Below are positions 1,331 through 59,589 of a DNA stretch of 64,000 bases, in pieces. How positions within the stretch are numbered: position 1 is the stretch's first letter; each line of letters starts with the position of its first letter. Source of the DNA: Malacoraja senta (Eukaryota); the NCBI GenBank assembly GCA_038087875.1, contig CM075995.1, positions 1,986,001 through 2,050,000 on the forward strand, written 5' to 3'. Under the pieces are notes generated by a model that made no database searches, had not been told where the DNA came from, and was given only the letters and a program-made list of their open reading frames with translations. A program made the position numbers and the translations under genes.

Positions 1331-2314
1331 TGAGTCTAAATGGGAGAACTGTCCCACAAACGCCACCACTGCAACTCAGAACAAAGCCTCACCCAAAATG
1401 GCCACTCCCACATAGCCCATCTGCCTGAGTCTGTCTGCCATATATACGCCACCAAGAGCAGTCACTCCCAGACACTGGACAGTCTGAAGAAGGGTCTCGA
1501 CCAAAAACTTCACCCATTCCTTCTATCCAGAGATGCTGCCTGTCCCACTGAGTTACTCCAGCATTTTGTGTTTATTCTCGGTGTAAACATGCATCTGCAG
1601 TTCCTTCCTACACACTGTTGGCTCTTTTTAAAATCTCATTATTATATGATAAACCATCTTTGGTTCAATGAGGAGCGCTGGAGGGAACACCAGCAGCTGC
1701 ATCAGTCCTAGCAAAGTAATGGGTGCCAGTGCGCAGAAGCTGCAACAAAGGACCGTCCTCTGGAGGAATTTACAAGTTTTTTTACAGAGGGCAGTGTGTG
1801 CCTGGAACGCGCTGCCAGTGGCAGTGGTGGAGGCAGATACAATAGTGGTATTTAAGAGGCTTTTAATTGGCACATGGATGTGCAGGTAATGGAGGAATAG
1901 GGATCACATGCAGGTCGAGACGACTATATTAACGGCATTATGTTGAGCCCTTCACTGTAGGCCAAAGGGTCTCTTCCTGTGCTGTACTGTTCTATGTACA
2001 GGAAGGTACTGCAGATGCTGGTTTACACCGAAGATAGACACAACATGCTAGAGAGACTTAGGGGGACAGGCAGCATCTCTGGAGAAGGAATGGGCGATGT
2101 TTCAGGTTGAGACCCTTCTTGAGACTGAGAGTCAGGAGAGCATTGAGAAATCTCCTCAAGGCATGCCGACTGAAGCTCTTTCTCTCTCCGACGAGAGTTC
2201 TGCAACACCTTCTCTCGCTGCTCCTCCTCTGCGGTTCCTTCTACTCTCCAGCTCTAGGATCTCTTGTTTCCCTCTACCCTGACTCTCAGTCAGAAGAATC
2301 GCCCAGTCCTTCTC

Positions 2315-2740
2315 AATAGACAATAGACAATAGGTGCAAGAGTAGGCCATTCGGCCCTTCGAGCCAGCACCGCCATTCAATGTGTTCATGGCTGATCTTC
2401 CCCAATCAGTACCCCGTTCCTGCCTTCTCCCCATATCCCCTGACTCCGCTATCTTTAAGAGCCCTACCTAACTCTCTCTTGAAAGCATCCAGAGAACCTG
2501 CCTCCACCGCCCTCTGAGGCAGAGAATTCCACAGACTCACAACTCTCTGTGAGAAAAAGTGTTTCCTCGTCTCCGTTCTAAATGGCTTACTCCTTATTCT
2601 TAAACTGTGGCCCTGGTTCTGGACTTTCCCAACATCGGGAACATGTTTCCTGCCTCTAGCGTGTTCAAGCCCTTAACAATCATATGTTTCAATGAGATAC
2701 CCTTTCATCCTTCTAAACTCCAGAGTGTACAAGCCCAGCT
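2315..2740 (-). mobile_element. CR1/HER1-like 3' fragment
   Basis: Reverse-strand copy of the 1-385 sequence; tail reads (caataga)n on the + strand. Confidence 0.85.
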
Positions 2741-2935
2741 TCTCCCCAGAGATACTGCCTGTATCTGTTCTATCTTCTAATGTAAGAGGCTTCAGTATTT
2801 GAGACAATTCATGTTTCTGTTCTACATTTAATTTGTCATAACAGAACATCTCAAACATACTAATTTTATTATGAAGCACTTTGATGTCTCTTGTGCTTGA
2901 GTATTTGTTTCTTTTTTGTGTGGTCGCTCATTGTT

Positions 2936-3250
2936 TTAGTTTAGTTTAGTTTAGTGATACAACGTGAAAACAGCCCTTCGGCCCACCAAGCCCGCACCGA
3001 CCAGCGATCCCCGCACATTAACACTTTCCTACACTTGGGACAATTTTTACATATATATTAAGCCAATCAACTTACAAACCTGTACGTCTTTGGAGTGTGG
3101 GAGGAAACCAAAGTTGTCGGAGAAGTATAGGTCACGGGGAGAAGGTACAAACTCCATACAGACAAGCACCCGTAACCAGGATCGAACCTGGGTTTCTGAT
3201 TCTGTAAGCACTGTAAGGCAGTAACTCTACTGCTGTGCCACTGTGCCGCC
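2936..3250 (-). mobile_element. HE1-type SINE
   Basis: Reverse complement of the same family with a (tttag)n tail. Confidence 0.85.
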
Positions 3251-3479
3251 CCTATTTGTCTATTTATATTGTTTATAAGAAATTCATTGGAAAAGAAAAA
3301 TGATTCCTTTTTAGGCACATGGATGAGCAGAAAATGGAGGTAAATGGATCACGTGCAGGCAGAGGTGGTTAGTTTATCTTGGCATCATGTTCAGCAGGGA
3401 CAATGTTGGCTGAAGGGCCTGTTCCTGTGCAGTATTGTTCCTTGTGTAAGAATGAACTGCAGATGTCGGTTTAAACCGA

Positions 3480-3669
3480 AGATAGACACAAAAAGCTGGA
3501 GTAACTATGTGGAACAGGCAGCATATCTGAAGAGAAGGCATGGGTGACGTTTCTGGTCGAGACCCTTCTTCAGGTCTGAAGAAGGGTCTCGACCCAAAAC
3601 GTCACCTATTCCTTCTCTCCAGAGAATCTGCATGTCCCGCTGAGTTACTCCAGCTTTTCATGTCTATCT
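3480..3669. repeat. Fold-back (inverted) dimer of the hammerhead unit, arms about 95 bp
   Basis: ...gacccttcttcag-gt-ctgaagaagggtc...; both arms extend out to agatagaca / tgtctatct. Confidence 0.85.
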
Positions 3670-4469
3670 GTACTGCTCCTTGTGCTTTGTTCTGTGTTTT
3701 CCAATAGCAGAAAGCGCAGAAAATCGAAAGAGGTGAGCAATTCCACAGATCAGAGCTGTAAATTATGGCAGAGAAGAGGTGAAGTCTCCAAGCACAACAC
3801 TATCCTTAACAATGGCACGAGCCAGCATGAGTACAAAAGAGAAAAAAAACGGAAGCATTTACAACCACACTTAGCCAGGTGCAGAGTGAATTATCTGTCT
3901 TGGCTTCCTCCTGAGTTCCCCGCGATCACAGAAGCCAGTTTTCAGTCAATTTGCTTCTATCCAAAGGCCAGCACGTAGCAGTTGAAAGCACTATGCAGCA
4001 AAAACAACGGGAGCAGACAGCATCCTAGCGACGGTATCAAAGGCAGGTTTCCACTCCACAACTAGCTGCTCCTCAAGCCAAGCCGTTCCATTGCAGTTAC
4101 AACAGTGCCATCTACCAGGCAATGTGGAAAATTGCCCTGTCCATCACACCAACCCCCCCCCCCCCCCGCCACCCCGCCTCAACTCATCTGCATTTCACGC
4201 TGCCTCGGGAAAGCATCCAATTCAACAATCAATTATGTCCCGGTCATTCCCTCTTCTCCTCTCTCCCGTCGGGCAGAAGATACATAAGCTTGAATACGTA
4301 CCAACGTATTCAGGAACTGCTTCTTCCTCGCAGTTATCAGTAGTCACCTACTGAACGGTCCTCTCATAACCCTGTTTAGGCAGGATCTGCGGATGCTGGT
4401 TTACACTGAAGGTACACGAAAAGCTGGAGTAACTCAGTGGGTCAGGCAGCGTCTCTGGAGAAAAAGGAA

Positions 4470-4507
4470 TAGGTGACGTTTCAGGGTCGAGGCCCTTCTT
4501 CAGACTC
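4470..4507 (-). ncRNA. Minimal hammerhead ribozyme motif (core intact)
   Basis: Minus strand agtCTGAAGAagggcctcgaccctGAAAcgTCacct. Confidence 0.55.
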
Positions 4508-4859
4508 ACAAGCCTGATCTTCCGACCTACGTCGCTGCAGCCCTTGCACTTTTTTTATATCTCTGAAAATGTAATGCTATAATGCAGGAACACTACATTC
4601 TGCACTCTGGTATTTTATTTTATTTGTATTACCTGTTATACTTGTTTACGGCTGGGTTGTACTATAGTATGATTTGACTGGATAGCGCACTAATTTGTTC
4701 TCTGTATTTCAGTACATGTGACAATAATAAAGCACCACCAATAGCAATCGCAAGTATGTCCTGTTAACATGAAACAGGCCACAAATCCAGCATGACTAAT
4801 CATTGCCCAACTACTCTGTCAGCAGATTGATGGAAGGTGTTGGAACTGTTCTTTCAAGC

Positions 4860-8200: not shown

Positions 8201-8517
8201 AAGCCCTGTCCCACTGTACGAGTTCATTCAAGAGCTCTCCCGAGTTTAAAAAAAAATCAAACTTGTGGAAGCACGTAGAATGTACATAGCGGGTACATCA
8301 GAGCTCGAGGATGTCTCTTAGCGCCTCGTAATGCTAACGGCAGGAACTCGGGAAACGCAGTAAGCTCGGGAAGACTCGTGAAGATTTTTCAACATGTTGA
8401 AAAATGTCCACGAGAGCCCCGAGTACCTACGAGCGGCCATTACCGTAAATCTCCGAGTTCGAATCAGGGCAAACTCGGGAGAACTCTTGAATGAACTCGT
8501 ACAGTGGGACAGGGCTT
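8201..8517. mobile_element. PIF/Harbinger-type MITE
   Basis: 47-bp TIRs (AAGCCCTGTCCCACTGTACGAG..., one mismatch) and a TTA target duplication at 8198-8200 and 8518-8520. No transposase. Confidence 0.88.
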
Positions 8518-8534
8518 TTACTGTGTGAGTAGTG

Positions 8535-8902
8535 GAAAAAGACACAAAATGCTGGAGTAACTCAGCGGGACAGGCAGCATCTCTGGAGAGAAGGAATGGG
8601 CGACGTTTCGGGTCGAAACCCTTCTTCAGAGTGAGAGTCAGGGAAGAGGGTGACATTAGAGATGTGGAAGGGTAAGGTGTGAAAACGAGAGATCAAAGTG
8701 GATGAAGGTCAAGGAAAATGTAGAATGGACCATTGTTAGCTGGGGAAGGTGACAGCAAGGCATACAATCAGTAAAATTTAATCAGGACAGTGAAACTAGG
8801 ATGGGGAGGGATGGAGAGAGAGGGAAAGCAAGGGTTACTTGATGTTAGAAGTCAACATTCATACCGCTGGGTTGTAATCTGCCCAAGCAAAATATGAGGT
8901 GC
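8535..8902 (-). mobile_element. Penelope-like element 3' end: endonuclease C-terminus, 3'UTR and hammerhead unit
   Basis: Minus strand gives HLIFCLGRLQPSGMNVDF, then a pyrimidine-rich UTR, then CTGAAGAAGGGTTTCGACCCGAAACGTC and the conserved downstream unit. Confidence 0.8.
8598..8633 (-). ncRNA. Minimal type I hammerhead ribozyme motif (core intact)
   Basis: CTGAAGA-a-GGGTT-tc-GACCC-GAAA-CG-TC on the minus strand. Confidence 0.6.
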
Positions 8903-13129: not shown

Positions 13130-13720
13130 AGCTACAGGAAAGGACCTGCTGAAGTAAACATGAAGTGAACTTCTAGTGGTCAATGGCGATGAAGTGGAAA
13201 TGGTTGAAAGCTTCAAACTCCTTGCCGTTAATATAATCTGTTGTGAACCAACCACATTGAAGCAACAGCCAAGAAGGGTCTCGACCTGAAACATTACCCA
13301 TTCCTTTTCTCCAGAGATGCTGCCTGTCCCACTGAGTTACTCCAGCGTTTTGAGTCTATCAAGGCACATCAACACCTCTATTTCCTTAGGAGACTGATTA
13401 AATTCGGCACCTCAATGACACCCACAAACTTCTACTGATGCAACATAAAAAGCATACAGCTTGGTTTGGGAGCAGCCCTGCCCAAGACTGCAAGAAACGT
13501 AGTAGATGTAGCACAGTTCATCACACAGACCACACTTCCCACCATGGACTCCATCAGGAAACCTCGGAAAAGCAGCCAACACAATCAAAGGATTGTCCCA
13601 CCCTGGTCATTCCTCCTTCTCCCATCCAGCAGAAGGTAAAGAAGCTTGAAAGTGCGCATCACCAGACTCACAAACAGATTCCTCCCCTCTGTTCTTAGGC
13701 TTCTGAATGGTCCTTTGACA
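13130..13720 (+). mobile_element. Old Rex1-like LINE fragment interrupted by a ribozyme-bearing unit
   Basis: GDEVEMVESFKLL, AHQHLYFLRRL and TAWFG remnants, collinear with the C-terminus of the intact Rex1 ORF. Confidence 0.65.
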
Positions 13721-14757: not shown

Positions 14758-15105
14758 AAACGATGATTATAGTATCATCTGATTGGATAGCATACAAAAC
14801 AAAACCTTTCACTCTGGCTCGGAATACGTGACAATAGTAAACCTAAACTTTAACTACAAATGGCTTTGTACAAGAGTGTTTGACTAGATGAAAAGACAGA
14901 AAATGGGTCATTTATGATGTGTTTTGTCTAAACTTGTCAAGTTACAAAATAAGAAACAGTTAGACAGGTACATGGATAGGACAGTTTTGGAGGGATATGG
15001 ACCAAGCGCAGACAGGTGGGACTAGTGTAGTTGGGACATGTTGGCCGGTGTGGGCAAGTTGGGCTGAAGGGCCTGTTTCCACACAATATCACTCTATGAC
15101 TCTAT

Positions 15106-15363
15106 GATCGCTTCGCCCAACACCTCCACTTAGTTCGTACTAACCAACCTGATCTCCCGGTTGCTCAGCACTTCAACTCCCCCTCCCATTCCCAATCTGA
15201 CCTTTCTGTCCCGGGCCTCCTCCATTGCCAGAGTGAGGCCCAGCGCAAATTGGAGGAACAGAAACAGCAATTCATTAGGTAGTTTACACCCCAGCAGTAT
15301 GAACATTGATTTCTCTAATTTTAGATAGCCCTTGCTTTCTCCCTCCTTCCCCTCTCCCTTCCC
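15106..15363 (+). mobile_element. Penelope-like GIY-YIG endonuclease C-terminal fragment
   Basis: DRFAQHLHLVRTNQPDLPVAQHFNSPSHS...RKLEEQ, then after a frameshift LGSLHPSSMNIDFSNFR*. The RFxEH, VAxHF, LEE and GxN pattern is typical of Penelope endonucleases. Confidence 0.8.
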
Positions 15364-16830: not shown

Positions 16831-17254
16831 AATACCTTCCATCCATTAAACCCAACTACAATATTTCTTTGTGTTGGAAGGAACTCCAGATGCTGCTTTA
16901 AACCAAAGATAGACACAAAAAAAAAGGAATAAATCAGCGGATCAGACAGCTACCCTGGCGAAAAGGAATAGGTGACGTTTCGAGTCGAGGCCCTTCCACC
17001 AAGGGAGGTTGGTTTGCGTGATGGTCTGGGCTGCATCCACAACTCTGCAATTTCTAGCGATTTTGGATGAAGCTGTTCCCAAACCATGTTGCGATACATG
17101 TCACAGGTCACCAACCTGTGACATTAATTCACTCTTTTCCCTCCAAGGACGCTGCCCAACTGGCTGACCCAGCATTTTCTTTTATTTTGAATTTCTTGTG
17201 AATAAAGGTTCCTGGAACTCTTAGTTCCAGACCTGTATTTGTCCTTTTGTCCTC

Positions 17255-17740: not shown

Positions 17741-18062
17741 CTGAATTTACGATGGATGGAAGGTACCAAGGCAGGTACCAGGTTACACTGACTGCAATAG
17801 CTTCCTGGGCTCAGGATAATCATGTTTAACCTTTGCTGTTTTCATGGCCCACTTTAAATAAGACCCACACAATGCATTCCTTCACAAATTTTAGGTTGTC
17901 CCTGCAAGGGGACAATGACAGTCTGAGGAAGGGTCTTAAACCTAAAACAACACCTATCCATGTTCTTCAGAGATGCTGCCTGACCTGCTGAGTTACTCCA
18001 GCACTTTGTGTCCTTTTACATCAAATTGATTGGGCTGTGGCATAGTTAAAAATTATCCTAGA

Positions 18063-18333: not shown

Positions 18334-20723
18334 AATAAAAGCTTTTGTAACTAAGGCTGAAATACTTAAATGGACGATAACAAGGAATGATCCTCAGAAA
18401 AAAATGATTCAGGGCCCTAACTGCAGATCTGTGGAAAATGTAATGGGGAAAGGTGAAGAATTACATCCTGTGGTCAAATAAATCTATTCTTTATGAAGTA
18501 GTGTTTCCTAAATTTTAAAATATTGAAACATGAAAAGCTTTGTGGACTCAATGTAATTACTAATTGTTGTCATTTCATATAAATCTTATGTTTGCAAAGA
18601 ATTCTTTCAGGTACAGAGAGTTCTGCCAATAATTAATAAAAGAAAAATGTTACTTGTACATTAATCATACCATCTGTATTATTTAATATCTTAACTGATG
18701 TTGAAGGGAGAGAAGCAAAGTTGTACAGCAGATTTTTTTAATGGTCATTTGGAAATGATTTGAAAGAATCATTGTATTTCTGCAGCTCATTCTATACTGA
18801 GGTTTGACGTTGTCAAGACATCTGGATAGATTTTCCATCGTAGGTACTATCCTTCCCCCATCAACAAAGGGATGTTTAGGAGACGTTGCCTCAAAAAGAC
18901 CCACACCACCCTGGCCATGCTCTCATTTCGCTCCTACCATTGGGAAGAAGGTACAGGTGCCTGAAAACAGTGACCACCAGGTTCAAGAACAGAGATGCAA
19001 GGAACTGCAGATGCTGGTTTACCCAAAAGGACACAAAGTGCTGGAGTAACTTAGCGGGTCAGGCAGCATCTCTGGAGAACATGCGTAGATGATGTTTCGG
19101 CTTGGGACACTTCTTCAGACTGGAATCCTCAGAGATGCTACCCGATCCGTTAATTTTCTCCACCACTTTGTGTCCTTTTAGGTTCAATAATAGATTCTTG
19201 TCAACAACCGTCAAGCTGTTGAGCACTACCCAATACTAACTACAGCAACTATGAATTTCTACGGACTACCTTTGGTTGCATTAAAACCTTTTGTTTTACA
19301 TATTGCGGTTATTAATTTATTGATTTTTAAACTCATATATTATGCGTGTGCATTGCATTTACGGCATTTACGGCCCTGTTCAGCTGCTGCAAGTCAGAAT
19401 TTTGATGTTCCATAATATGACAATTAAATACTCTTGATTTGACATTGAGGGAGATGGCAAATGGTCCATGTTTTTGTGGAGAGCAATGGAATTTCCAGAA
19501 GATAGTGATGATCTCTGTTGGATTCATTCACGTGTGTAAGGTTCACCAGTATAGCGTATTGTAGTGCATATTGCTAGTTGTAAAAAATTCTAAGAAATAT
19601 TCAAGGCTCAAAGCCTGCCAGGCCTGCAAGAACAGCAGATTCTTTTCTCAAAGAAGCTAATTTGCCCAATGCGACTGAAGTCCTGATAAGACGATGGTCT
19701 GCCAAGAAAAACAATACTTGGCTCGAGATTTCTGTAAACTGTTTATGATTAATAAAAGAAAAACAACATTTTACATTTGTACATTTGTACTTCAGCCAGT
19801 TGCCCACACTTAATGAGGACTTCATTTTAAGAATTATAATGCAGGATCTATTCCTTCTCATGTGGTAAGGAAAATGAAAATGTAAAATTGAGATATTTTT
19901 CTGCTGAGAATCGTTGAGTCATACGGCAAGGAAAGAGGCCCTTCAGCCACACTTGCCCATGCCGGCCACAATGCCCCATCTATGCCAGTTGCAAATGCCC
20001 ACCTTTAGCCTTTCCTATCAATGTATTTGACCAAATATGTTAAAAAAGTTATTAAACTACCTGCGTCAACTACCTTCTTTAGCAGACCGTTCAATATACC
20101 CTCCGCCCTCTCTGTGAAAAAGTTGCCGCTCGGGTTCCTATTATATCTTTCCCCTCTCACCATCAAACCTATGTCTTCTGTTTCTTGATTCCCTTACTCT
20201 GCGTAAAATACTCTGTGCATTCTTCCTAACATATTCCAATGCTTGGATCAGGAATTCATTTTACTTGAAAGAAGGAATTTGGGTGGTAACGGCTGGTTAG
20301 CCAACCTTCCATACTTCAATCAGTCGTGATTGAATGGCGGAATTGTCCCTGGTGCGTAGGATAGTGCTGATGTACGGCGGTCGCTGGTCGACACGGACTT
20401 GGTGGACACGGACACGGAATTGAAATCCCTTCAATTCAATTTATGATCGAATTGAAGGGAATCTTTCCCTCCTAACTCCATTCTCCTGCCTTCTCCCCAT
20501 AACCCCTGCCATCCGTACTAATCAAGAATCTATCTATCTCTACCGTAAAAATATCCATTGGTATAATGTACTAATGTAATTGGTTGTAATGTAATGTACT
20601 CCTAATAAATAAAAATTAAAAAAATATATATATATCCATTGGTATCCACTTGGCTTCCACAGCCTTCTGTGGCAAAGAATTCCACAGATTCACCACCCTC
20701 TGACTAAAGAAATTCCTCCTCAT

Positions 20724-21512: not shown

Positions 21513-23552
21513 CTATTAATGTTTAATGTTTTATGTGTCATTCCTAACTGTCACTGTATGTCATGTTGTCACTTGCGAGTGGAGCACCAAGGCAAATTCC
21601 TTGTATGTGAATACTTGGCCAATAAACTTATTCATTCATTCCTAAAGGAACATTCTTTAATTCTGAGGCTATGACCTCCAGTCCGAGGCTCTCCCACTAG
21701 TGGAAACATTCTCTCCACATCCACTCTATCCAAACCTTTCACTATTCTGTATGTTTCAATGAGCTCCACCCTCACTGCCGTCAAACGCTCATCATATGTT
21801 AACCCACTCATTCCTGGGATCATTCTTGTAAGCCTCTGGACCCTCTCCAGAGCCAGCACATCCTTCCTCAGATTGGGTGCCCAAAAGGTCAGGCAACATC
21901 TGTGGAGGAAAATGGATGGACAATGTTTCGGGATGGGACCCTACCTTTCTGTTGGGCTGCTGCAAGTAAGAATTTCATTTTACCATCTGGGACGGATGAC
22001 AATAAAACACTCTTGACTCTTGACTCAGACTGGCACAGAAAGAATATTTGATGGTAGTTCTACCCAATGAAAATATCACATCCCTACAAGGATACACTCT
22101 CAGGCCCCTACTATATATCCCCAAACCACTCTCTTTGATATGTGATACTGCTTATAAAGCATCAGTTATTGTTCAAGTGTTCCTCAAATACATATTGAAT
22201 AATGCTTTTTGGTACCTGCTCCATTTCCTGGCAACTGACTGCCTATCTTCCCACGGTCACCTGCTGAATCAGATCATTTGCAACTGGGCAACTGATCTCC
22301 AGCTTCATGTGCCCCCCACCAATAACTTCCACTTTCATCATACGTGTGTGTCTACCTCAACCTCCCTCAAACCAACCAGAGCTGAAATCTCACCCTGGCA
22401 TTTGTTACTTTAAAATTTGACAATGTTCTCCTGCCTGGTCTCCTATCCTACATCCTCTTTAAATTTCGACTCATCCAAAGGTCTGCTGCCCAACTCACGC
22501 CAGGACACATTCACTCATCAATGCCTATGCTCTGCTCCAAGAGAGGGGACCTCATTGAAACATACCGAATAGTGAAAGGCCCGGATAGAGTGGATGTGGA
22601 GAGGATGCTTCCACGAGTGGGAGAGTCTAGGACCAGAGGCCATAGTCTCAGAATAAAAGGACGTACTTTTTATAAAGGTGAGGAGGAATTTATTTAGTCA
22701 GAGGGTGGTGAATCTGTGTAATTCATTGCCACAGACGGCTGTGGAGGCCATCATTAGGTATTTTTAAGGTGCAGGTTGACAGATTCAATATTAGAGTCAT
22801 ACTAAGATTAGAGTCCTTAGCAAGGGTGTCAGGGGTTATGGGAAGAAGATGGGGTTGAGAGAGAAAGATAGATGTCATGATTGAGCATTATTCTCAACAG
22901 TGAAACTCGTGCATATTTAATCTGCTGTCCTCAGGAAGCCAATTCCTTAAATATTTGAAATAGCTTTTTCAATAGCTCAGTCAGTTTATTTAACAAACAG
23001 CTGAGTCTGATTTTCACATGTCTAGAAAAGAACTGCAGATGCTGGTTTACACCGAAGTTAGACACAAAATGCTGCAGTAACTCAGCGGGTCAGGCAGCAT
23101 CTCTGGAGCGAAGGAATGGGTGACGTTTCGGGTCGAGACCCTTCCTCGGTTTAGTTGTTTAGTTTAGTGTAGAAATCCAGCGCTGAAACAGGCCTGTGGC
23201 CCACTGAATCCACGCCGACCAGCGATCCCTGCACACTAAAGGGCCTATCCCACTTACGTGTCCTTGCCACGCAAATTACGCGACCTCGTGGTCGCGTTGA
23301 GCCGAGACGGTCCCGCGAAGGTCGGGCGCGATTACATGCGTATGCACAGCCGTCTGGAGCTCGTGACGTCATTTGAAGATGGACACAAAGCTGGAGTAAC
23401 TCAGCGGGATCGGCAGCATCTCTGGAGAGAAGCAATGGGTGACGATTCGTGTCGAGACTCTTCTTCAGTCTGAAAAGAAGGGTCTTGACCCAAAACGTCA
23501 CCCATTGCTTCTCTCCAGAGATGCTGCCGGTCCCGCTGAGTTACTCCAGCAT

Positions 23553-24234
23553 TTAAGTATAAGTATAAGTATCCTTTATTGTCATTCAGACCTTTTGGTC
23601 TGAACGAAATTTCATGCCTTGCAGTCATACATATAATAAAATAACAAAAACACACAATAAACACAAATTTAACATCCACCACAGTGAGTTCACCAGGCAC
23701 CTCCTCACTGTGATGGAAGGCAAAAGTCTTAAAGTCTTTGTCTCTTCCCTCCTTGTTCTCCCTCTGCGCTGAGGCGATCCAGGCTTCCGATGTTGTGACC
23801 CCACCGGGTGATGGTAAGTAAGTCAGTCCCGCGGCTGAATCCGAGCTCCGCGAACGGGCCGGTTCAAACTCCGCGGCCCGGGGCGGTCGAAGCTGCCGCC
23901 CTCCAGTCCAGCGGACGAAGCTGTTGCTGCGGGAGCTCCGGAAAAACAGGCCACCAACCTGTGACCTGCGGGCTCCCGACGACGTCGTTCACCAGGCCCG
24001 CGGCCGAGTCTCCGAGGCTCCGAAGTCGGGTCGCCGCCGCCGGAACGCCGCCACAGCCCCGAAGTCGGGCCGCCGCCGGAACTCCGCCACAGCCCCGAAG
24101 TCGGGTCGCCGCCACCGGAACGCCGCCACAGCCCCGAAGTCGGCCAGCCTCGCGTTGGTAAGTCCTGGCTAGCTCTGCCTCCGGAGCCTCGAGGACGGTC
24201 CCAGTTGGAGGCCGCCAGCTCCGCCATTAGGCCT
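23553..24234 (-). mobile_element. GC-rich non-coding retroelement, 5'-truncated, nested in a MITE
   Basis: Has AATAAA and a (TACTTA)n tail on the minus strand. CAGCAT is repeated at both junctions (23547-23552, 24235-24240). Confidence 0.65.
24021..24143. repeat. GC-rich tandem repeat, three units of 36-39 bp
   Basis: Unit cgaagtcgggtcgccgccgccggaacgccgccacagccc repeated three times. Confidence 0.9.
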
Positions 24235-25037
24235 CAGCATGTTGTGTCTATCTTCAATTTTCTTGGCGAGTAGAAGTGCGGGCGGATCCGGACCGCAATG
24301 GCCGTGAGCCCCAGGCCGAGATCGGCGATCGTTTGCCTGCTTCTGCTGCTGTTGAAGGTGAGACATTGCGTCGCGCCAGCGTCTTGGGCCTGTCCCACTG
24401 TGGCCATCAGTTCCGCGACAGGCCGTTGGCGCGCGAAGATTTCGTTCATTACAAAGATTTCGGAGCCCCGCGCGATGTCGCGCACAGCTCCATACCCCTC
24501 CGCGCTTCTAAATGGGACCGGCCCCGCGTGGCCATACGATGCCTGTGCGCCTCAACGCGACCACGAGGTTGCGTAATTTGCGTGCCAAGGACACGTAAGT
24601 GGGACAGGCCCTTAACACTATCCTGCATACACTAGGGACAATTTACAATCTTACCCAAGCCAATTAACCTTCAAACCTGTACGTCTTTGGAGTGTGGGAG
24701 GAAACTGGAGCTCCCGGGGAAAACCCATAGTCATGGGGAGAACGTACAAACTCCGTACAACAATCAGTCTGAAGAAGGGTCCCGACCCAAAATATCACCT
24801 ATCCATGTTCTCCAGGGACATTGCTTGAACCGCTGAGTTACTCCAACATTTTGTGCCTTTCCTTGACAATTTCCATCCTCTCTGTACATCTGACAATATT
24901 CTCTGTAAAATATATCCTACTGTAGCTCCATCGCAATTTTAGTAGTTACTGTGTTGAAGCTCTACTGGAGCTTTTGATTAAGAAACACTTGCATTTTAAA
25001 AGTTTCATCCTTGTTTTGAAAATGTCTCCTTGGCATT

Positions 25038-32205: not shown

Positions 32206-32242
32206 CCATCTGAAGAAGGTTCCCGAACCGAAACGTCACCTG
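32206..32242 (+). ncRNA. Minimal hammerhead ribozyme motif with compensatory stem II
   Basis: CTGAAGA-a-GGTTC-cc-GAACC-GAAA-CG-TC. Confidence 0.6.
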
Positions 32243-32471
32243 TCCAATTTCTAAAGAGATGCTGCCTGACCCACTGAGTTATTCCAGCATTTTGTGTCTA
32301 TGTTTGGTATAAACCAGCATCTGTGGTTCCTTATTATTAAAATAGGACAACAGATTAATTTGTTTTCTGAATTTTAACACATAAACGATCAGATTTTAAA
32401 CTATTAAGCACCAGATAGTTTCAATTGAATTACCTGGCTTCTGTTAAAAAATAGCTCCTTCTGCAGATTGT

Positions 32472-35770: not shown

Positions 35771-35862
35771 TGATCTAAAACGGCTGTTTTGGATTTTCAC
35801 GATGTGACGCAGCCGACAACCTACCCCAGCAACCCAAAGCAGCCGACATCCCGGCTCAACAG

Positions 35863-36160
35863 AATGCCGTTTCTCTCAAACTGCCTGTGTTCTGGACATC
35901 GCAGCCCCAGGTGTGGTTCCGGCAGGCTGAGGCCCAGTTCCATATTCGGCGAATTACTGCCTATGACACGAAGTATTATTATGTGGTCAGCGTGCTGGAT
36001 CAGGACACGGCCGGTCGACTCGAGCATTACCTGCGCCAGCCGCCAGCTGCCGACAAGTACGAGGGCCTCAAGGAGCTCCTCCTGCATACCTTTGGTCTCA
36101 GCCGCCACGATCGGGCGGTGATGCTCATGTACATGGGAGATCTCAGTGATCGCAAGCCTT
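35863..36160 (+). pseudogene. Gypsy gag N-terminal fragment, cut off by the Rex1 element
   Basis: Reads NAVSLKLPVFWTSQPQVWFRQAEAQF...TKYYYVVSVL...LSDRKPS, a recognisable Gypsy gag N-terminus. It stops at the Rex1 tail. Confidence 0.8.
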
Positions 36161-46509: not shown

Positions 46510-46850
46510 GGGACGACAGATGGCGCAATGGGCTAAGTGTTCGGCTGGCAACCGGAAGGTAGCCGGTTCGAATCCCGCTTGGAGTGCATACTGTCGTTGT
46601 GTCCTTGGGCAAGACACTTCACCCACCTTTGCCTGCGTGTGAATGTGTGTGAGTGATTGGTGGTGGTCGGAGGGGCCGTAGGCGCAGATTAGCAGCCACG
46701 CTTCCGTCAGTCTGCCCCAGGGCAGCTGTGGCTACAGAAGTAGCTCACCACCACCGAGTGTGACTGAGGAGTGAATGAATAATGCGATGTAAAGCGCCTT
46801 CAGTATTAGAAAGGCGCTATATAAATCCCATCCATTACTATTATTATTAT
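46510..46850 (+). mobile_element. tRNA-derived CORE-type SINE with an L2-type tail (resembles teleost AFC SINE)
   Basis: A-box TGGCGCAATGG, B-box GGTTCGAATCC, CORE motif GTGTCCTTGGGCAAGACACTT, tail stem-loop tgtaaAGCGCCTT...AAGGCGCTatataaat, then (TAT)n. Confidence 0.85.
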
Positions 46851-47039
46851 ATCTTACAGACCGAAGTGCTGGAGTGACTCAGCATGTTAGGCAGCATCTC
46901 AGGAGAGCACGGACATGTGATGTTTTTCTCGAGACCCTTCCTCAGACTGATTGTAAGGGGAGGGGGCTTGGGTAGCTTACAACCCAAAGGTATGAACATT
47001 GAATTTTAAATCACCTCTGAATAAACACCCCTCCTCTCC

Positions 47040-47740: not shown

Positions 47741-47771
47741 TCATTGCTGACATAGACTGATATCGTCATCG

Positions 47772-49120: not shown

Positions 49121-50849
49121 GTCCACTCCACTAGTCACAGTAAAGTGCCCCTTGTGTATAGGTGAGGGGTAGAGTCGGTGAGGACTTCATTTGAATGTGG
49201 GAGAATAAAAAGGGCTTAAATAAATGAAGCAAATCAGAGTTGATGGTTGTCATAGATTCAGTGAGCCAAAGTTCCTGTCCTCCATTACTCTTTGACTCGA
49301 CATTATATTTAAAAAACGTAGCCATAGAGTCAGACTCGTACAGTGAAAGCAGGCCCTTCGTCCAACTCGCCCACACCAACCAACACGTCCCATCTACACT
49401 AGTTCCACCTGCCTGCGTTTGGCCCATATCGCTCTAAACTATTCTATCCTTGTACCTGTCTAATTGCTACTTGAACGTTGCGATAGTCCCTGCCTCAACT
49501 ACCTTCTCCGGCAGCTTGCTCCATAGGTTCTCGATTCCCCCGCTCTGGGCAAGAGACTCTGCGTGTCCACCCAAATCCATTCCTCTCATGATTTTATACA
49601 CTTCTCAAATACCTCTAAAAATTAAAATAACTAAAATCATTAAACGAAGCAACTGGTTAAAATGTTAAACCAACTTATTCAGTGCAGCCATTTTTGTCCT
49701 TTCATATGAATGAGTTCTCTGTCCAGGCTTGGTTCAGACAGTAGGTTCTGGGGAATTCAGGCTGGGGAATTCAGCAAGTTCATCCTTCACCCTTGTGTAG
49801 CATCTGACAAACAGAATCAGGACACACAGCCAGTTTCTGACACACAGCCAGGATCTGCCACAACAGCCCGGCAGGCAAGTCTGGGACTCTCTCGTTCGTG
49901 CAGGAATCCCAAAAGTGCAGATGCTTACAAGACCAAATGCTGGATAAAGGTTCTCGGTGGAATTCACGATATTTCTCGCTAACTTCTGACCTAAAATCAG
50001 ATTAACAAGAATAATTGCACTAAACACGAAATCTATTATTCAAATCTCAATTATTACAACTGCTGACCTTGCCATTGTTACATTAGCAGTTTGTGGCCAA
50101 AGGAAATCGAAAGGAGATGCTTTATTTTTTTTTAAATATCTTTCGTCAATGAAACATTTATGAATACAATGGAAGAAATCATTAATGTTTCTTTGACGAG
50201 AACTTATGAGTTCCAGGAGCACAATTAGGCCATTCGGCCCATCAAGTCTACTCCGTCATTCAATCAAGGCTGATCTATCTTTCTCTCCTAACCCCATAAC
50301 CCGATACCCATAACAATCAAGAACCCGTCGATCTCCACCTTAAAAATATCCATTGGCCTCCACAGCCTTCTGTGGCAATGAATTCCACAAATTCGCCACC
50401 CTCTGACTAAATAAATTCCACCTCATCTCCTTTCTAAAGGTACGTCCTTTTATTCTGAGGCTATGGCCTCTGGTCCTATACTCTCTCACTAGTGGAAACA
50501 TCTTCACATGCACTCAATCCAGGTCTTTCACTATTCGCTACGTTTCAATGATGACCCCCCCCCCCTCTTCTTTCCAAAAGGATTGACAGAAATAGTTACC
50601 AATTGGTAAATTGCAGCTGTTTTCCTACCAGTGGATGACAGGAAGATTCAAAGTCCTTTTAAATATTAGAAGTTGCAAGCTCAAAGCTATATCTGTCACT
50701 TGACCTGGTCCTGCATAACTATGCAAGTTGGCAAGACCACATGTACTGACAAATGGAGTCACAAGAAACAGAATGGTGCTTAAATCTTGCATAGAACACA
50801 AAGTGCTGAAGTAACTCAGGCAGCATCTCTGGAGAACTTGGATAGTTAA

Positions 50850-51180: not shown

Positions 51181-52471
51181 AGATAAACTGATAATCGCAG
51201 ATAAGATGACAGTCCATGATTCAAAATGTCGTTTCATCCTAAAGTATACTTACATTGCGTTTCTGCAGAATGATTTAATTTTGCAAAAAACAAATTAGGG
51301 GAAAACAAAGCAAAAAAACCCCAGAGCTGCTCAAAATCTGGTGCAAGGAAACTATGATTGTATAATTCAGGGAGCACCGTGCCTTTTCAAGGCAGTGGGG
51401 AAATCCCCTAATCCAGGAATTTATATAGTCAGAAAAAATAAGTGTAGCTTCTGAACTTTTCACTGATGTTCAGGATTTCATATAAGTGCCAGTAATATTA
51501 TTAAATCTGGCTGCATGGTTAACTTAATATTTGTGTATTCTCAGGGTGGTGATCATTTGGTCTGTTAATTATGTACAGTTCCCTTTCAAACTACAAACTT
51601 CCACCTATTTAAGGATATTAATTCTTGTCTGAAAAGCACCTCCTGTTAAAGTCACAATGGATGTTTCATGATTGATTTCTTGTTGGTACCGAATGATATC
51701 AATGTTTTTTTATAAGCCTCTGTTTCACACAATTGTTAGAGAGGAACCTTAACATGTAATTATTCTCAAAAAACCAGTTCAAGGTAAAAGAAACAAATTT
51801 AGTCATTCCAAATTGCAACATAAGTTTATTTAGCAGTTGAGCCAATGTCACCTCTTGGTATTGCACAATAAATTATGATTTGTGTAATATTAAATCAAAG
51901 AGGGGCATTGAGAAAATAATCATGTTAAAGAAGGAACTGCAGATGCTGGAAAATCGAAGGTACACAAAAATGCTGGAGAAACTCAGTGGGTGCAGCAGCA
52001 TCTATGGAGCGAAGGAAATAGGCAACATTTCGGGCCGAAACCCTTCTTCAGACTCATGCCTCCAGTGATATTGTTCAGCAACATTAGGGCGGCACGGTGG
52101 TGCAGCGGTAGAGCTACCGCCTTACAGACGTGGGTTCGATCCTTCGACCCCACGCCGACCAGCGATCTCTCCACACTAACACTATCCTACACACACTAGG
52201 GACAATTTACATTTATACCAAGCCAATTAACCTACAAACCTGTATGTCTTCGGAGTGTGGGATGAAACCAAAGATCTCGGAGAAACCCCACACGATCATG
52301 GGGAGAACGCACAAACATTCTTGCCGACAGCACCCGTAGTCAAGATCGAACCCAGGTCTCTGGCGCTGTATGGCCCTGTGCCATTGTGCCACCCTTTTAT
52401 CTTCCAATCACTTGCTCAGCTTTGTGCTGCCTCCACTTCTACTTTTCCAGCTTTCTCCCCACAACTCCAAC

Positions 52472-52508
52472 CAGTCTGAAGAAGGGTCCCGACCTGAAAC
52501 GTCACCTG
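52472..52508 (+). ncRNA. Minimal hammerhead ribozyme motif (core intact)
   Basis: cagtCTGAAGAagggtcccgacctGAAAcgTCacctg. Confidence 0.6.
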
Positions 52509-54049
52509 TCCATCCCCCCCAGAGATGCTGCCTGACCCGCTGAGTTGTTCCAGCACTTTGCGTTTTACTCCAGATTCCAGCATCTGAAGTTCCTTGCATC
52601 TCCACAGATTACAAGATGTATTCATAAGGTGACGACCAGTTTGCCATATAAAGAGGCTAGGTCTGCATTTTCTGGAGTTTGGTAGATTAAGAGGAGACCA
52701 CACTGAAACTTACAGAATCGAGAACCAGAGGACATAGGTTTAACGTGAGGGTGAAAACATTTAATAAGAATCTGAGGGGTAACTTTTTCATGCAAAGGGT
52801 GGTAGATGCATGGAACGTGCTGCCAAAGGAGGTAGTTGAAGCAGATACTAACGCAACGTTTAAGAAACATTTAGACAGGTACATGGATAGGACAGATTTA
52901 GAGGGATCTGGGCCAAATGCAGATGGGTGGGGCTAGACTAGACGTAATGGCCAGTGTGGGCAAGTTTGGCCGAAGGGCCCATTTCCTATGAATTAGACTC
53001 TAATTCTAACAAGGCTCAACATGTTGGGTTCAGGGAGGATGTTCAGAGCTGGGAGTCATGGCCGCAGGAACAAAGGCCACCTTGTTCAAGACTTGGTGAG
53101 GAGAAATATTTTTACTCAAGCAGTAGTTAATCTTTGGCATTCTCTACCCAGGAGGGCTGGGGAAGCTCAATCACTGAGTTCTTTCAGGACATCGGTAGAT
53201 GTTTGAATATTATGGGAATCAGGGGCTATGGGGATAGTGCAGGAAAAGGCCATGATTTTGATAAATAGCAAAGCAGCTTCAAAGAGCCTGCTGAAATATT
53301 TCTTGTTTCCTTTTGCAATAATATGGAATGTTCACACTTTTCTGGCAAGGCCATTACCTGTCAGGGAAAATAGGTAGGCAATGCTGCAAAGGTAGGCAAA
53401 GCTGCAAATTGGCTATATTTATTAGTCTATCAAGTAAACGGTGCTTAATCCCAATTAATGCAGTCACAAATTAAAGCAATCATTTTCTTCCTGACAAGTT
53501 AGAAAAGCATTTAACAGGAGTTGTAAGGGTACTAACTGTGGGGATTTTGGACACGAGTTAAGAGTGAAGAGTGCATAATTGCCAGATGCATAGTATGGGT
53601 GTCAGAGGTTACAGGGAGAAGGCAGGAGAATGGGGTTAGGAGGGAGACATAGATCGGCCATGAATTGCAGAGTAGACTAGATGGGCCAAATGGCCTAGTT
53701 CTGCTCCTATCACCTATGACCTTATGACCGATGCACCAGGACCAACGCAGTCTGAACAAGGGTTTTTACCCAAAACGTCTCCCAATCATTCAATCCAGAG
53801 ATGCTACTTGTCCTGCTGAGTTACTCCAGCATTTTGTGTCTATCTTCACTCTTTTAATGAAACAAGCTCCTTTTCATTCTGATCTTTAATTGATTAAACA
53901 TTAGATTCACGTGTATAATATACCATTCATTAATGATCTGGAGTATAATATTCCATTGCTATATCGGAGGGGTTGTGCTGATAGACCCAGCAAACACTCA
54001 GATTCAGACTTACACCTAGAACCGAACCACACTCAGATGTCACACAAAA

Positions 54050-54340: not shown

Positions 54341-54411
54341 AAACCCAGCACACACTCAAGACCTCAGATTCCTTTTGTGTAACTTGTAACCTAACGATAT
54401 GAACACTAACG

Positions 54412-54788: not shown

Positions 54789-55700
54789 TAGGTGACTAAC
54801 CTACAACAGTTCCCCTTTTCCTCCCTCTCTTCCCTGTGCCCCCTCCTGGACGCGCAACATTTATCCCTTTCCCCTTCCCTCCGTACACCTAGATTCCTTC
54901 TCTGGGTTCACATGCTTCTTCCATCCTTATCTCACACTTTTTGCATTTTCATCTCTGGCCTTTGTCCACCCACCTACCTATCAACCTCCCCCCCTCACCG
55001 ATATCCACCTGTCACTTGCCCAACTTTGGCCCACCCCCACCTCTCATCCAGCTTTCTCCGCCCCCCTACCACTACAATTAGTCCAAAGAAGGGTCATGAC
55101 CCGAATCGTCACCTATCCATGTTCTCCAGAGATGACCCGCTGAGTTACTCCAGCACTTTGTTTCTTTTTTTTTGTAAATCAGCATCTGCAATTCATTCTG
55201 CCCTCAGCTTCACATTGAGGTTAGAAGACAAAGAACTAAAATCATCAAAGGAAGAAATGCATAAATAGCCTTATTCAACCATGCAAAGGCATATTGGTCA
55301 CGATCTGTTCATACTTTTAAAATTCCTTTGTAAAAACCCCTCCAAGATCACTTACGCAAACTCATGGCAATGTTCGCCCGAGTGTTTGAACTTTCAGGTG
55401 GAAGATTAACAAAGAGGAAAGACATCGATGTTCAAGACTGATCACAGAAGGGCTATAATCTCCACAAACACAAAGCTCCAAGCATCCTAAGACGGTGATA
55501 GCATGGGGCGAAAATGGTCGCAGCATCATAAGTCAATGAAATCACAAAATAAATCTCGCAAATGGCATAAACCCCGTGGTGTATTTTCCGGTGTGCTGTG
55601 CATTTGGCAACCTTGTTCAATTAAAGCTGGAGCACTTGAAAATAAATTGCATCCTGAAGTACTGCTGAATATTTGATGGGTATATTTTAAAGAAGCTCAC

Positions 55701-57714: not shown

Positions 57715-57943
57715 TCTGCTTTTTTTAAATTTTTATATATAGATAGAAAATAAGAAAGTAGCAGAAAGAAGGAAAAAAAAAAAAAAGGATAATAAAGAAG
57801 AATGGAATAACTTACTAAAAGTACATCATTAGAGATATATTCGTACATTTCAAAGTATAACTTTTCATCTAATCCTTAGCTCGAGTTTTAGTCAGGTTCC
57901 CGTGTCGAACCAGTCTGACCCTTCAAATAGTCAATAAATGGAG
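57715..57943 (-). mobile_element. Second copy of the same L1/Tx1-like 3' end
   Basis: The reverse complement matches 13945-14230 (tctcc.tttattga.tattt.aagggtcaga...ggaacctgactaa, aaatgtacgaatatatctc). Confidence 0.8.
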
Positions 57944-58092
57944 AAAAAAACAATATTGGAGGCAACACGAATAACGTTTGATAATATTCGTAATGTAGAA
58001 ATGAAATACATGAAATGTTTTCAATATGATATGTACTGGCCTCTAATAAAATATTATTCAAAAAAAAAAGGAAAGGCTCTGCTTAACACTTT

Positions 58093-58402
58093 GGGGCGGC
58101 ACAGTAGCGCAGCGATAGAGCTGCTGCCTCACAGCACCAGAGACCCGGGTTCGACCCCGACTACGGGTGCTGTCTGTACGGAGTTTGTACGTTCTCCCCG
58201 TGACCGCATGGGTTTTCTCCAAGATCTTCGTGTTTCCTCCCACACTCCAAAGACATTCAGGTTTGTAGGTTAATTGGCCTGGTATAAGTGTAAATTGTCC
58301 CTTGTGTGTGTAGGATAGTGTTAATGTGCGAGGATCGCCAGTCGGTGCCGACTTGTGGGCCGAGGGGCCTGTTTCACACTGTATGTCTAAACTAAACTAA
58401 AC
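58093..58402 (+). mobile_element. HE1-type SINE
   Basis: Full head, body and tail. Confidence 0.85.
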
Positions 58403-58534
58403 AAGCTTTAAGGTCAGAGGGAGCCAGCTTCCCACCAGAAAATGGAGCCCTCTCCAAGTAAGAGCAGGCTTTAAGAAGTGGTGAATGCAGGTTTACAAGC
58501 ATAAGTGGCCTGAAAGTAGCTTGAAAAAAAAATG

Positions 58535-58960
58535 TGTTTCACGGCACTGGGCCTACATTCGCTGGAGTTTAATAGAATGAGGGAAACATACGGAATAGCG
58601 AAAGGCTTGGATAGAGTGGACGTGGAGAGGATGTTTCCACTGGTGGGAGAGTCTAGGATTAGAGGTCATAGCCTCAGAATTAAAGGACGTTCTTTTAGGA
58701 AGGAGATGAGGAGAAATTTCTTTAGTCAGAGAGTGGAGAATCTGTGGAATTCTTTGCCACAGAAGGTTGTGGAGGCCAAGTCAGTGGATATTTTTAAGGC
58801 AGAGATATAGATTCTTGATGAGTACGGGTGTCAGAGGTTATGGAGAGAAGGCAGGAGAATGGAGTTGAGAGGGAAAGATAGATCAGCCACGATTGAATGG
58901 CGGAGTAGACTTGATAGGCCGAATGGCATAATTCTACTCCTATCACATGATCTTATAATC
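58535..58960 (+). mobile_element. CR1/HER1-like 3' fragment
   Basis: ORF 58532-58810 (ERMFPLVGESRIRGHSL...FFSQRV). Confidence 0.85.
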
Positions 58961-59088
58961 TTAAGCATGCAATAATTTTCACTGTGAAAGAAGAGACACA
59001 GCGAAGTGGCCCAGTGGACTGTTGGTCTGTCTACAGTACACTGCATATCCTGCCAGCCCTCTTAAAAGAGCACAATTTAATTTAGTCA

Positions 59089-59124
59089 CAGTCTGAAGAA
59101 GGGTTTCGACCCGAAACGTTGCCT
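59089..59124 (+). ncRNA. Minimal hammerhead ribozyme motif (core intact, GTT triplet)
   Basis: cagtCTGAAGAagggtttcgacccGAAAcgTTgcct. Confidence 0.55.
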
Positions 59125-59589
59125 ATTTCCTTCGCTCCAGAGATGCTGCCTCACCCGCTGAGTTACTCCAGCATTTTTGTCTACCTTCGATTTTCCAGCA
59201 TCTGCAGTTCCTTCTTAAACAGTTTAATTTACTTCTCTTTAAAAAGCAAAAATGACTTCTTGCTTGTAACATTACAGATTACCTGCATTGAAAATGCAAA
59301 CTCCAGAGATAGCTCATTGAAATCCAAGAATCACTACAGTGACAGACACTCATGTGGCTTCTTGCAGCTTTATGTTCCTTTAAATACCACTTCCAATATA
59401 TATTTGAAAACAATCTTTTTAGGTTTAACACAGCACTGGCCATCCGTGCTTATTAAACTTGCATTATTCCACAGCGATTAGCATCTTGTACCCAACTTTT
59501 GTGTACGATGGGCATGCAGGGGTCCCTGTGTATTCAATTTCCAGGACATATTTGAGAGAGCCGGAAAACAACATTTTCTTTAGACTTCT

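What the first reader, a model, noticed from the sequence alone, without database searches (positions are those of the whole stretch)
1480..59216. Dispersed ~130-bp unit carrying a minimal hammerhead ribozyme core (about 20 copies in 64 kb)
Seen: a unit cagtCTGAAGAa-gggtc-tc-gaccc-GAAAcgTCacc...agagatgctgcc...gagttactccagca...tgtgtctatc recurs on both strands (near 1480, 2090, 3545/3576, 4470, 8600, 13275, 16975, 17920, 19090, 23120, 23440/23470, 24766, 26355, 28605, 28905, 32210, 34475, 46915, 52025, 52475, 53750, 55080, 59090). At least five copies keep CTGANGA, stem II, GAAA and a GTH triplet. Many copies begin right at CAGTCTG, so the unit looks discrete. Known: Penelope-like elements carry minimal type I hammerheads whose stem III is a tiny palindrome (here ACGT) that favours cleavage as dimers. 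Inference: this is a high-copy, non-autonomous, ribozyme-bearing retroelement family in an elasmobranch. Caveats: stem I is only 2-4 bp in most copies, and the shared 5' boundary is upstream of the predicted cleavage site, not at it.
Basis: partly seen in the sequence, partly recalled or inferred. Interest (0 to 1): 0.8.

Follow-up and report, generated by a model that had tools for sequence, protein, structure and literature searches.

The report
Penelope transposon tail-ends carrying hammerhead motif
The repeated 100-130-base unit is the tail end of a Penelope-type jumping gene whose full-length copies lie elsewhere in this genome; it carries the small hammerhead ribozyme motif known from such elements, is likely present about 600,000 times, and is likely a by-product of the parent's copying rather than an independent element, with self-cleavage untested and predicted to be weak.

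Summary
Observation confirmed: all listed copies exist (32 hits, 0 in the reversed window); 8 of 20 core-spanning window copies keep the hammerhead core. The unit is the 3' end of the pseudo-LTR of Neptune-type Penelope-like retrotransposons. In this genome it follows RT + GIY-YIG reading frames and flanks intact 1,247-1,261-codon elements. It shows the known PLE signatures: two 3' ends about 36 nt apart (the tail), 9-14 bp target duplications, head-to-head pairs. There are 43,723 exact cores genome-wide and roughly 600,000 copies by sampling. Related invertebrate/fish elements keep the same core with covarying stems; here stem I is only 2 bp and the fold is predicted unstable. The shared 5' boundary is real: 39 of 80 copies stop at -19..+3 of the core, none at -20..-59, and one of 95 at the cleavage site. 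But short copies share haplotypes with long ones in every subfamily, so they look like by-products, not a separate SINE. Copies that arrive from the ORF mostly pass that boundary (1 of 15 stop). A known kind (Cervera & de la Pena 2014); this scan noted it in other genomes four times. Copy number and the boundary are the additions.

The parts
59089..59221 (+). Reference copy, long form with tail; begins at CAGT; 9-bp repeat in both flanks
59091..59122 (+). Minimal hammerhead: stem I 5' arm 59091-92, CTGAAGA 59093-99, extra A 59100, stem II 59101-04/59109-12, GAAA 59113-16, palindrome ACGT 59116-19, predicted cut after 59120, stem I 3' arm 59121-22
   Evidence: sequence; alignment A2 and pair counts
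1480..1613 (+). Copy, long form, core decayed
1996..2127 (-). Copy, long form, a few bases of upstream UTR, core decayed
3444..3675 (.). Head-to-head pair joined just 5' of the two cores (3444-3573 minus, core intact; 3574-3675 plus, core decayed)
4373..4506 (-). Copy, long form, core intact
8508..8632 (-). Copy with intact core that continues at least 90 nt upstream into the parent's 3' UTR
13271..13388 (+). Copy starting inside the core
15100..15322 (+). Fragment of the parent's GIY-YIG C-terminus, followed by the start of its 3' UTR; no unit behind it
   Evidence: tblastn 72% identity, E 9e-20; sequence
16870..16996 (-). Copy starting inside the core
17919..18037 (+). Copy, short form, core decayed
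18993..19186 (.). Copy 18993-19122 minus (core intact, stem II broken) with an inverted partial partner 19128-19186
21886..21945 (-). Decayed partial copy
23020..23147 (-). Copy, long form, first core bases changed
23345..23572 (.). Head-to-head pair sharing the CAGWCTG junction; both cores decayed
24765..24876 (+). Copy, short form, core decayed
26249..26387 (-). Copy, long form, core decayed
28553..28631 (-). Partial copy
28904..28980 (+). Copy cut at its 3' side, core decayed
32209..32338 (+). Copy, long form, core intact, with a short duplicated start at 32189
34473..34609 (.). Inverted pair of partial copies
46825..46949 (-). Copy, short form, core decayed
50781..50847 (-). Partial copy without the core
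51923..52055 (-). Copy of the youngest lineage, long form, core intact
52472..52599 (+). Copy with intact core and upstream UTR similarity
53748..53878 (+). Copy, core decayed
55080..55199 (+). Copy with upstream UTR similarity, core decayed

Best explanation
The unit is the last 95-130 bases of the pseudo-LTR of a Neptune-type Penelope-like retrotransposon, and the short copies are likely made when the parent's own RT/GIY-YIG protein starts copying at one of two sites behind the hammerhead motif and likely lets go just 5' of it. Shown: identity with the parent's end, two 3' ends about 36 nt apart, target duplications, head-to-head pairs, a 5' end hotspot at -19..+3, and no hotspot at the cleavage site. 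Inferred: the endonuclease nick primes cDNA at +92/93 or +128/129 on uncleaved RNA. Also inferred: the stop is tied to the repeat in which priming took place, most likely because that repeat is held in the protein-RNA complex (about 50%; a short RNA starting at TCAGT about 30%). The hammerhead is a true member of the PLE minimal type and would cut after GUC/GUU only as a dimer or with the element's protein; with a 2-bp stem I it is predicted to be weak or silent as naked RNA.
For: Parent: GIY-YIG frames followed by the unit about 110 nt after the stop; 135 ORF ends in the fetched loci are followed by a core 110-463 nt later; full elements L113 and L112 with the unit at both ends of 1,247/1,261-codon open frames; RVT_1 and GIY-YIG matches; CX4CX2C linker and DKG motif. 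Tail: 3' ends peak at +91..+95 and +127..+132 in 129 young copies, and the tail sequence is the start of the 5' UTR in tandem copies, as in PMC11167929 and PMC8557442. Target duplications of 9 nt or more in 62 of 273 short copies against 4.1 shuffled. 5' hotspot: 39 of 80 at risk end at -19..+3, 0 of 41 at -20..-59, about 0.002-0.003 per nt further up; the same boundary shows as loose ends in contigs of three other organisms. Copies that run into the ORF pass it: 1 of 15 stop, against 39 of 80, p = 0.003. By-product: all six subfamilies hold both short and extended copies and the main young haplotypes are shared. Hammerhead homology: 13 invariant columns in 15 sequences are the core; stems covary, 0 of 500 shuffles.
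Against: No transcript or cleavage data: the runs found were contigs only. Two sites differ in frequency between short and extended young copies (+28, p < 0.0001; +88, p = 0.002). This fits an age effect, since the youngest haplotype has more long copies, but a part-independent short lineage is not excluded. Pfam scores for the parent protein are below the curated cut-offs. The barrier itself is unobserved, and TATA/Inr spacing in two related lineages points to a start site instead. Core conservation across this genome's six subfamilies alone is not significant (0 of 11 vs 14 of 55 variable, p = 0.10).
Confidence: 0.85

Rival explanations
1. The short copies are complete copies of a short capped RNA that starts at the TCAGT initiator-like motif just before the core. 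They could come from any pseudo-LTR, including solo copies, so the unit would behave as a Pol II-driven SINE-like passenger of the parent.
For: CAGT is kept in all subfamilies while the UTR before it changes in sequence and length. In related elements a TATA box lies 35-39 nt before the core in two lineages, in one with TCAGT 30 nt behind it; background 66 of 5000. G is enriched directly before copies that start at AGT (21 of 41, p = 0.003). TATA plus Inr in a pLTR is reported in PMC3846280.
Against: 14 of 15 ORF-bearing copies extend past this point, 7 of them ending at -300..-366, so ORF-bearing RNA mostly starts further up. This family has no TATA box there. Copies anchored by a target duplication show no extra G (adjacent extra base T5, C3, G3, A3). 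The ends are spread over about 20 nt.
Confidence: 0.3
2. One reading: an independent non-autonomous retroelement family that spreads by its own ribozyme processing (retrozyme-like).
For: Discrete ends with target duplications. Tandem arrays of pLTR pieces exist (138-bp and 384-bp periods), and the 138-bp unit starts exactly at the predicted cut. Such arrays are called retrozymes in bioRxiv 10.64898/2026.07.22.740005.
Against: The sequence is the parent's own end and tracks its subfamilies. Only 1 of 95 non-inverted young copies starts at the cut. The copies are dispersed monomers or inverted pairs, not direct tandems. The 138-bp array lacks the core, and its junction also has microhomology.
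Confidence: 0.07
3. CAG before the core is a splice acceptor (the UTR being an intron, as in Drosophila virilis Penelope), and splicing sets the boundary or supplies a longer stem I.
For: A long pyrimidine tract precedes CAG in all subfamilies, and older ones have GT at the stop codon. In D. virilis the intron's end meets helix I (PMC4209133).
Against: 0 of 135 ORF ends are joined directly to the core. Short copies carry target sequence, not a constant first exon, before the core. No GT..AG joint among the 15 joints shown of 157. The youngest lineage lacks the GT.
Confidence: 0.08
4. On the ribozyme alone: the motif no longer cuts in this lineage and is kept as a binding or folding landmark for the element's protein.
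For: Stem I is 2 bp against 3-6 bp in 9 of the 10 relative rows (2 bp in L331). The hammerhead fold lies about 4-10 kcal/mol above the best fold; stem II probability is 0.00-0.27 in four copies against 0.97-1.00 in five relatives. In the anole element, hammerhead mutants did not affect insertion in vitro (PMC11167929).
Against: All catalytic positions, the extra base and the palindrome are unchanged through six subfamilies, while neutral positions (N7, loop II, H17) vary. The anole hammerhead cut only with its protein, so weak naked folding does not mean silence.
Confidence: 0.4

Closest known systems
Minimal hammerheads (min-HHR) in the pLTRs of metazoan Penelope-like elements (Cervera & de la Pena 2014, PMC4209133; parts 1-2 of 4 read)
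   Same: Type I core, extra base between A9 and G10.1, G10.1-C11.1 pair, palindromic 15.2-16.2 without loop III, mostly single dispersed motifs tied to truncated PLEs, opposite-strand pairs.
   Different: Stem I 2 bp and stem II 4 bp (their typical 4-5 and 7-8 bp; 2 bp only in D. virilis). 43,723 exact cores here against about 4,000 (coelacanth) and 9,000 (Xenopus), counted by another method. No cartilaginous fish in the parts read.
Neptune clade of endonuclease-bearing PLEs (Craig et al. 2021, PMC8557442; passages read)
   Same: RT with C-terminal GIY-YIG, CX2-5CxxC linker, partial tandems forming pLTRs, inverted 5'-truncated neighbours, 30-40 bp tail.
   Different: A long Pro/Ser-rich insert makes the frame about 1,250 codons. 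Clade membership rests on motifs and neighbours, not on a tree with Repbase references; Nematis shares the linker.
Poseidon element of Anolis carolinensis, PAc (Frangieh et al. 2024, PMC11167929; parts 1-2 of 4 read)
   Same: Two RT start sites behind the hammerhead define the tail; uncleaved RNA is the template; no ends at the cleavage site; both strands are cut and extended, which would explain inverted pairs.
   Different: There the ORF starts inside the hammerhead; here the first ATG lies about 165 nt behind the core. A 5' stop at the core was not described in the parts read.
Animal non-LTR retrozymes (Li, Clavereau, Pollet 2026, bioRxiv 10.64898/2026.07.22.740005; parts 1-3 of 5 read)
   Same: pLTR-derived, hammerhead-bearing, present as monomers and arrays; reported in one chondrichthyan genome.
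   Different: Defined there as direct tandems with a hammerhead in each unit; the window's copies are dispersed monomers and inverted pairs with target duplications.
Penelope elements of Adineta vaga (Arkhipova et al. 2013, PMC3846280; passages read)
   Same: Solo pLTRs, head-to-head inverted pLTRs with palindromic junctions, 8-10 bp target duplications, 31-bp tail, Inr-like motif.
   Different: Few copies; their solo pLTRs often lacked target duplications, whereas many here have them.

Membership tests
Penelope-like element (EN+), pLTR end | Linked to a single ORF with RT and C-terminal GIY-YIG | tested here: met
Penelope-like element (EN+), pLTR end | Partial tandems that form direct pseudo-LTRs | tested here: met
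   L112, L113, L115, L123, L126
Penelope-like element (EN+), pLTR end | Optional 30-40 bp tail | tested here: met
   3' ends at +92/93 and +128/129
Penelope-like element (EN+), pLTR end | Inverted 5'-truncated neighbours | tested here: met
   34 of 129 young copies; 98 of 351 sampled copies
Penelope-like element (EN+), pLTR end | Target-site duplications | tested here: met
   62 of 273 vs 4.1 shuffled, mostly 9-14 nt
Neptune clade | CX2-5CxxC linker between RT and endonuclease | tested here: met
   CX4CX2C in the parent
Neptune clade | RT groups with named Neptune references in a tree | not tested
   No named Repbase proteins among the hits; no tree built
PLE minimal hammerhead | CUGANGA and GAAA boxes, UH triplet, extra base 9/10.1, G10.1-C11.1, palindromic 15.2-16.2 | tested here: met
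   135 of 262 sampled core-spanning copies keep the core
PLE minimal hammerhead | Helices I and II supported by compensatory change | tested here: met
   Across 15 sequences: helix II 100% paired, helix I 75%, 0 of 500 shuffles, slid controls 22-38%. The relatives were picked with a descriptor that asks for these stems, and related rows inflate the counts.
PLE minimal hammerhead | Helix I of 4-5 bp | tested here: not met
   2 bp in this family; an old decayed sister family shows a 3-4 bp arm
Hammerhead ribozyme (function) | Self-cleavage after NUH | not testable with these tools
   No raw RNA reads; folding predicts weak naked activity
Independent non-autonomous element (SINE-like) | Own lineage of source copies, separate from the autonomous partner | tested here: not met
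   Shared subfamilies and haplotypes; sample of about 1 Mb only
Non-LTR retrozyme | Direct tandem with a hammerhead in each unit | tested here: not met
   Window copies are monomers or inverted pairs; arrays exist elsewhere
Non-LTR retrozyme | Circular RNA of unit length | not testable with these tools
   contigs only

The most novel reading that the evidence does not exclude
Half a million insertions record a step of Penelope transposition not described in the papers read: cDNA primed in a pseudo-LTR hits a hard stop at the 5' edge of that same repeat's hammerhead, while cDNA arriving from the ORF passes through. The hammerhead here has shrunk to a 2-bp stem I and would serve as the protein-bound landmark that sets insertion ends, making a SINE-sized unit without a SINE gene and one of the largest loads of a ribozyme motif in a genome.
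Probability: 0.3. Interest if true: 0.6.

Novelty: new member of a known kind. Interest (0 to 1): 0.33.

Why it matters
What the hammerhead does for Penelope-like elements is an open question (PMC8557442, PMC11167929). This family offers intact young parents (97-99.6% identical copies), tens of thousands of intact cores and sharply mapped ends. It can test whether the motif cuts, binds or marks a start site. It also explains a few per cent of an elasmobranch genome. The class of element and the motif are already known.

Tried and rejected
Rfam scan: no hammerhead family matched; the motif is too minimal, so this is no evidence against it. Tandem Repeats Finder: none of 13 rows is this unit. 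Cleavage-made 5' ends: rejected (1 of 95 non-inverted copies at +28, one inverted at +29). Spliced DNA copies: 0 of 135. Cap-derived G: mixed. A strong long-stem-I family in this genome: only 70 and 11 exact matches to two motif variants; most of the 30 loci viewed for the first are point variants of the main family. Whole-unit folding is not unusual: z = -1.3 to +0.5 for six window pieces, -2.2 for the L113 unit. Expression: no RNA holder listed; the laid runs were contigs, which show the unit in three other organisms but no start, end or strand. Searches used a reference with a duplicated stretch or one extra base; their offsets were discarded and redone. The full-length 5' end count rests on 20 of 40 planned regions plus 13 loci already held. 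Paper searches found no description of this family in sharks or rays; Repbase and Dfam were not available and may hold it; supplements of PMC4209133 and of the 2026 preprint were not seen and may list it.


Full report
Observation. The unit is real. Of 20 window copies that span the core, 8 keep CTGANGA, GAAA and a TH triplet, 7 of them with at least 3 of 4 stem II pairs. Rfam has no matching family. In 863 kb of sequence not chosen for the unit (the window, 200 kb beside it, 60 spots elsewhere) there are 423 hits, 0 in the reversed control; core-bearing hits run at 18 per 100 kb on C1 and 34-39 elsewhere, about 620,000 for the genome, a rough figure. An exact 28-letter motif of the intact core has 43,723 matches, control 0. 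Of 262 sampled copies that span the core, 135 keep it.

Parent. Copies with longer 5' sides share upstream sequence of variable length. A GIY-YIG search of the genome gave dispersed frames followed, about 110 nt behind the stop, by the unit (part of that output was cut). Over all fetched loci, 135 ORF ends have a core 110-463 nt behind them. A young lineage has at least 150 near-identical RT copies. L113 and L112 are complete: unit, open frame of 1,247 or 1,261 codons, unit again. The protein matches RVT_1 and GIY-YIG below the curated cut-offs (GIY-YIG above it in two shorter copies), has the DKG motif and a CX4CX2C linker, and is closest to proteins named from Mobula (73%), Chiloscyllium (68%), Rhincodon (68%) and Hypanus (66%), then about 50% to marine invertebrate proteins. 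By the definitions in PMC8557442 (passages) this is an endonuclease-bearing PLE of Neptune type; no tree was built. A piece of the parent's endonuclease end lies in the window at 15100-15322.

Ends. I took 129 young-lineage copies by a tag that lies behind the cleavage site, so the choice does not depend on the 5' end (core C = 0). 3' ends peak at +91..+95 and +127..+132. The stretch between is the start of the 5' UTR in tandem elements: the PLE tail, which PMC11167929 (parts 1-2 of 4) traced to two internal RT start sites. Of the 129, 34 are head-to-head, 15 of these fused at a palindrome at +10. Of the 95 others, 15 end at +29..+4, 39 at +3..-19, none at -20..-59, and 41 run 60 nt or more upstream at a low steady rate; one starts at the predicted cut (+28). 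Target duplications of 9 nt or more flank 62 of 273 short copies of all ages against 4.1 in shuffles. Contigs from three other organisms show loose ends at the same place. Genome-wide, 6,736 of 19,101 young cores carry the youngest parent's 11 upstream bases; the rest are short copies or sister subfamilies.

Separate family or by-product. Six subfamily clusters (3.5-20% from their majorities; clustering is weak, silhouette about 0.25) each hold short, inverted and extended copies: 187, 98 and 66 of 351. In the young lineage the six commonest haplotypes occur in both short and extended copies; two sites differ in frequency, with the youngest haplotype richer in long copies. This favours continual production from the autonomous lineage. 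A part-independent short lineage cannot be excluded from about 1 Mb.

Why the stop. Elements that run from a 5' pLTR into the ORF mostly pass the boundary: 1 of 15 ends at -19..+3, against 39 of 80 terminal copies (p = 0.003), and 7 of the 15 end at -300..-366. The stop is therefore tied to position and to the repeat in which priming occurred; it appears with both 3' ends. The simplest reading, inferred, is early release at the edge of the protein-bound repeat. The rival is a short RNA starting at TCAGT: two related lineages have TATA 35-39 nt before the core, one with TCAGT 30 nt behind it (background 66 of 5000), and G is enriched before AGT starts (21 of 41). Against it, copies anchored by target duplications show no extra G. 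Splicing at CAG found no support.

The hammerhead. In 80 loci of related elements from metagenomes a descriptor finds 21 hits, 0 in reversed sequence, typically about 105 nt behind the ORF or upstream of it. In an alignment of 5 copies from this genome and 10 relatives, the 13 invariant columns are the catalytic core, the extra A and G10.1; helices I and II covary (0 of 500 shuffles), with the caveat that the relatives were picked by those stems. The motif fits the min-HHR of PMC4209133 (parts 1-2 of 4). Within this genome the core is unchanged across subfamilies (0 of 11 against 14 of 55 downstream positions, p = 0.10). But stem I is 2 bp, the hammerhead fold is about 4-10 kcal/mol above the best fold, and stem II forms with probability 0.00-0.27 against 0.97-1.00 in relatives. 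An old decayed sister family has a longer arm. Published minimal motifs did not cut as monomers and cut weakly as dimers (PMC4209133); the anole one cut only with its protein (PMC11167929). I put protein- or dimer-assisted cleavage at about even odds and naked monomer cleavage at about 5%.

Comparison and verdict. All parts are known PLE traits (PMC4209133, PMC8557442, PMC11167929; PMC3846280 passages; PMC2377424 passages). The 2026 preprint on retrozymes (parts 1-3 of 5) links pLTR-derived monomers and arrays to PLEs and includes one chondrichthyan. Searches found no paper on this family; repeat databases were not available. Four earlier notes of this scan report the same kind of thing in other genomes (none by sequence or in this genome). 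It is a new member of a known kind. What it adds is scale, a very short stem I, and a measurable 5' stop that is specific to the primed repeat.

Noticed in passing
L076, L077, L065 (G000 C5550, C14:18.24-18.41 Mb of 18.49 Mb, C4451; hits also at C17:5.9-11.6 kb): A second, very young PLE family in tandem arrays near contig ends. It has two ORFs (597 aa with a weak GDSL/SGNH match; 759 aa RT + GIY-YIG), long (CCCTAA)n runs on the sense strand behind the ORF, and its own hammerhead-like motif. It looks like an endonuclease-bearing PLE that builds or targets telomeric arrays. Esterase ORFs in Neptune-like PLEs are mentioned in PMC5408684; one paper search for the telomeric arrangement found nothing relevant.
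   Followed up: partly
L407-L417 (G000 C1:27.817 Mb): Tandem array of a 138-bp unit that starts exactly at the predicted cleavage site (+28) and ends at +165; the junction also has microhomology, so a cleavage origin is not shown.
   Followed up: partly
L418-L430 (G000 C1:28.90 Mb): Tandem array of a 384-bp pLTR piece with an intact hammerhead core in the unit printed, i.e. a retrozyme-like array; arrays with 165-, 254- and 275-bp spacing are also listed.
   Followed up: partly
L112, L113, L123, L433, L441, L442, L443; also L254, L232, L169: A second cluster of 5' ends at -300..-366 from the core, possibly the start of the full-length RNA or the edge of a master copy.
   Followed up: partly
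L268 (G000 C1:3.87-4.04 Mb): Array of about 2-2.5 kb period holding units on both strands, many repeats.
   Followed up: no
window 36331-39171 minus: 946-codon open frame with AP endonuclease and RT: a nearly intact non-LTR retrotransposon.
   Followed up: partly
window 42484-44284 minus; 20613-21377 plus: Pieces of another non-LTR element (RT and endonuclease matches for the first; the second resembles CR1 ends by recall, no Pfam match).
   Followed up: no
window 35779-36243 plus: DUF7041 match (E 8e-20), a domain I recall from LTR-element gag regions.
   Followed up: no
window 3444-3675 and 23345-23572: Head-to-head pairs would fold into long hairpins if transcribed (-137 and -152 kcal/mol); 98 of 351 sampled copies sit in such pairs, a large possible source of double-stranded RNA.
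   Followed up: partly
L113 4787-4920: In the young long form the 5' end of the unit is predicted to pair with the end of the tail, closing the whole unit (z = -2.2); weaker in older subfamilies.
   Followed up: partly
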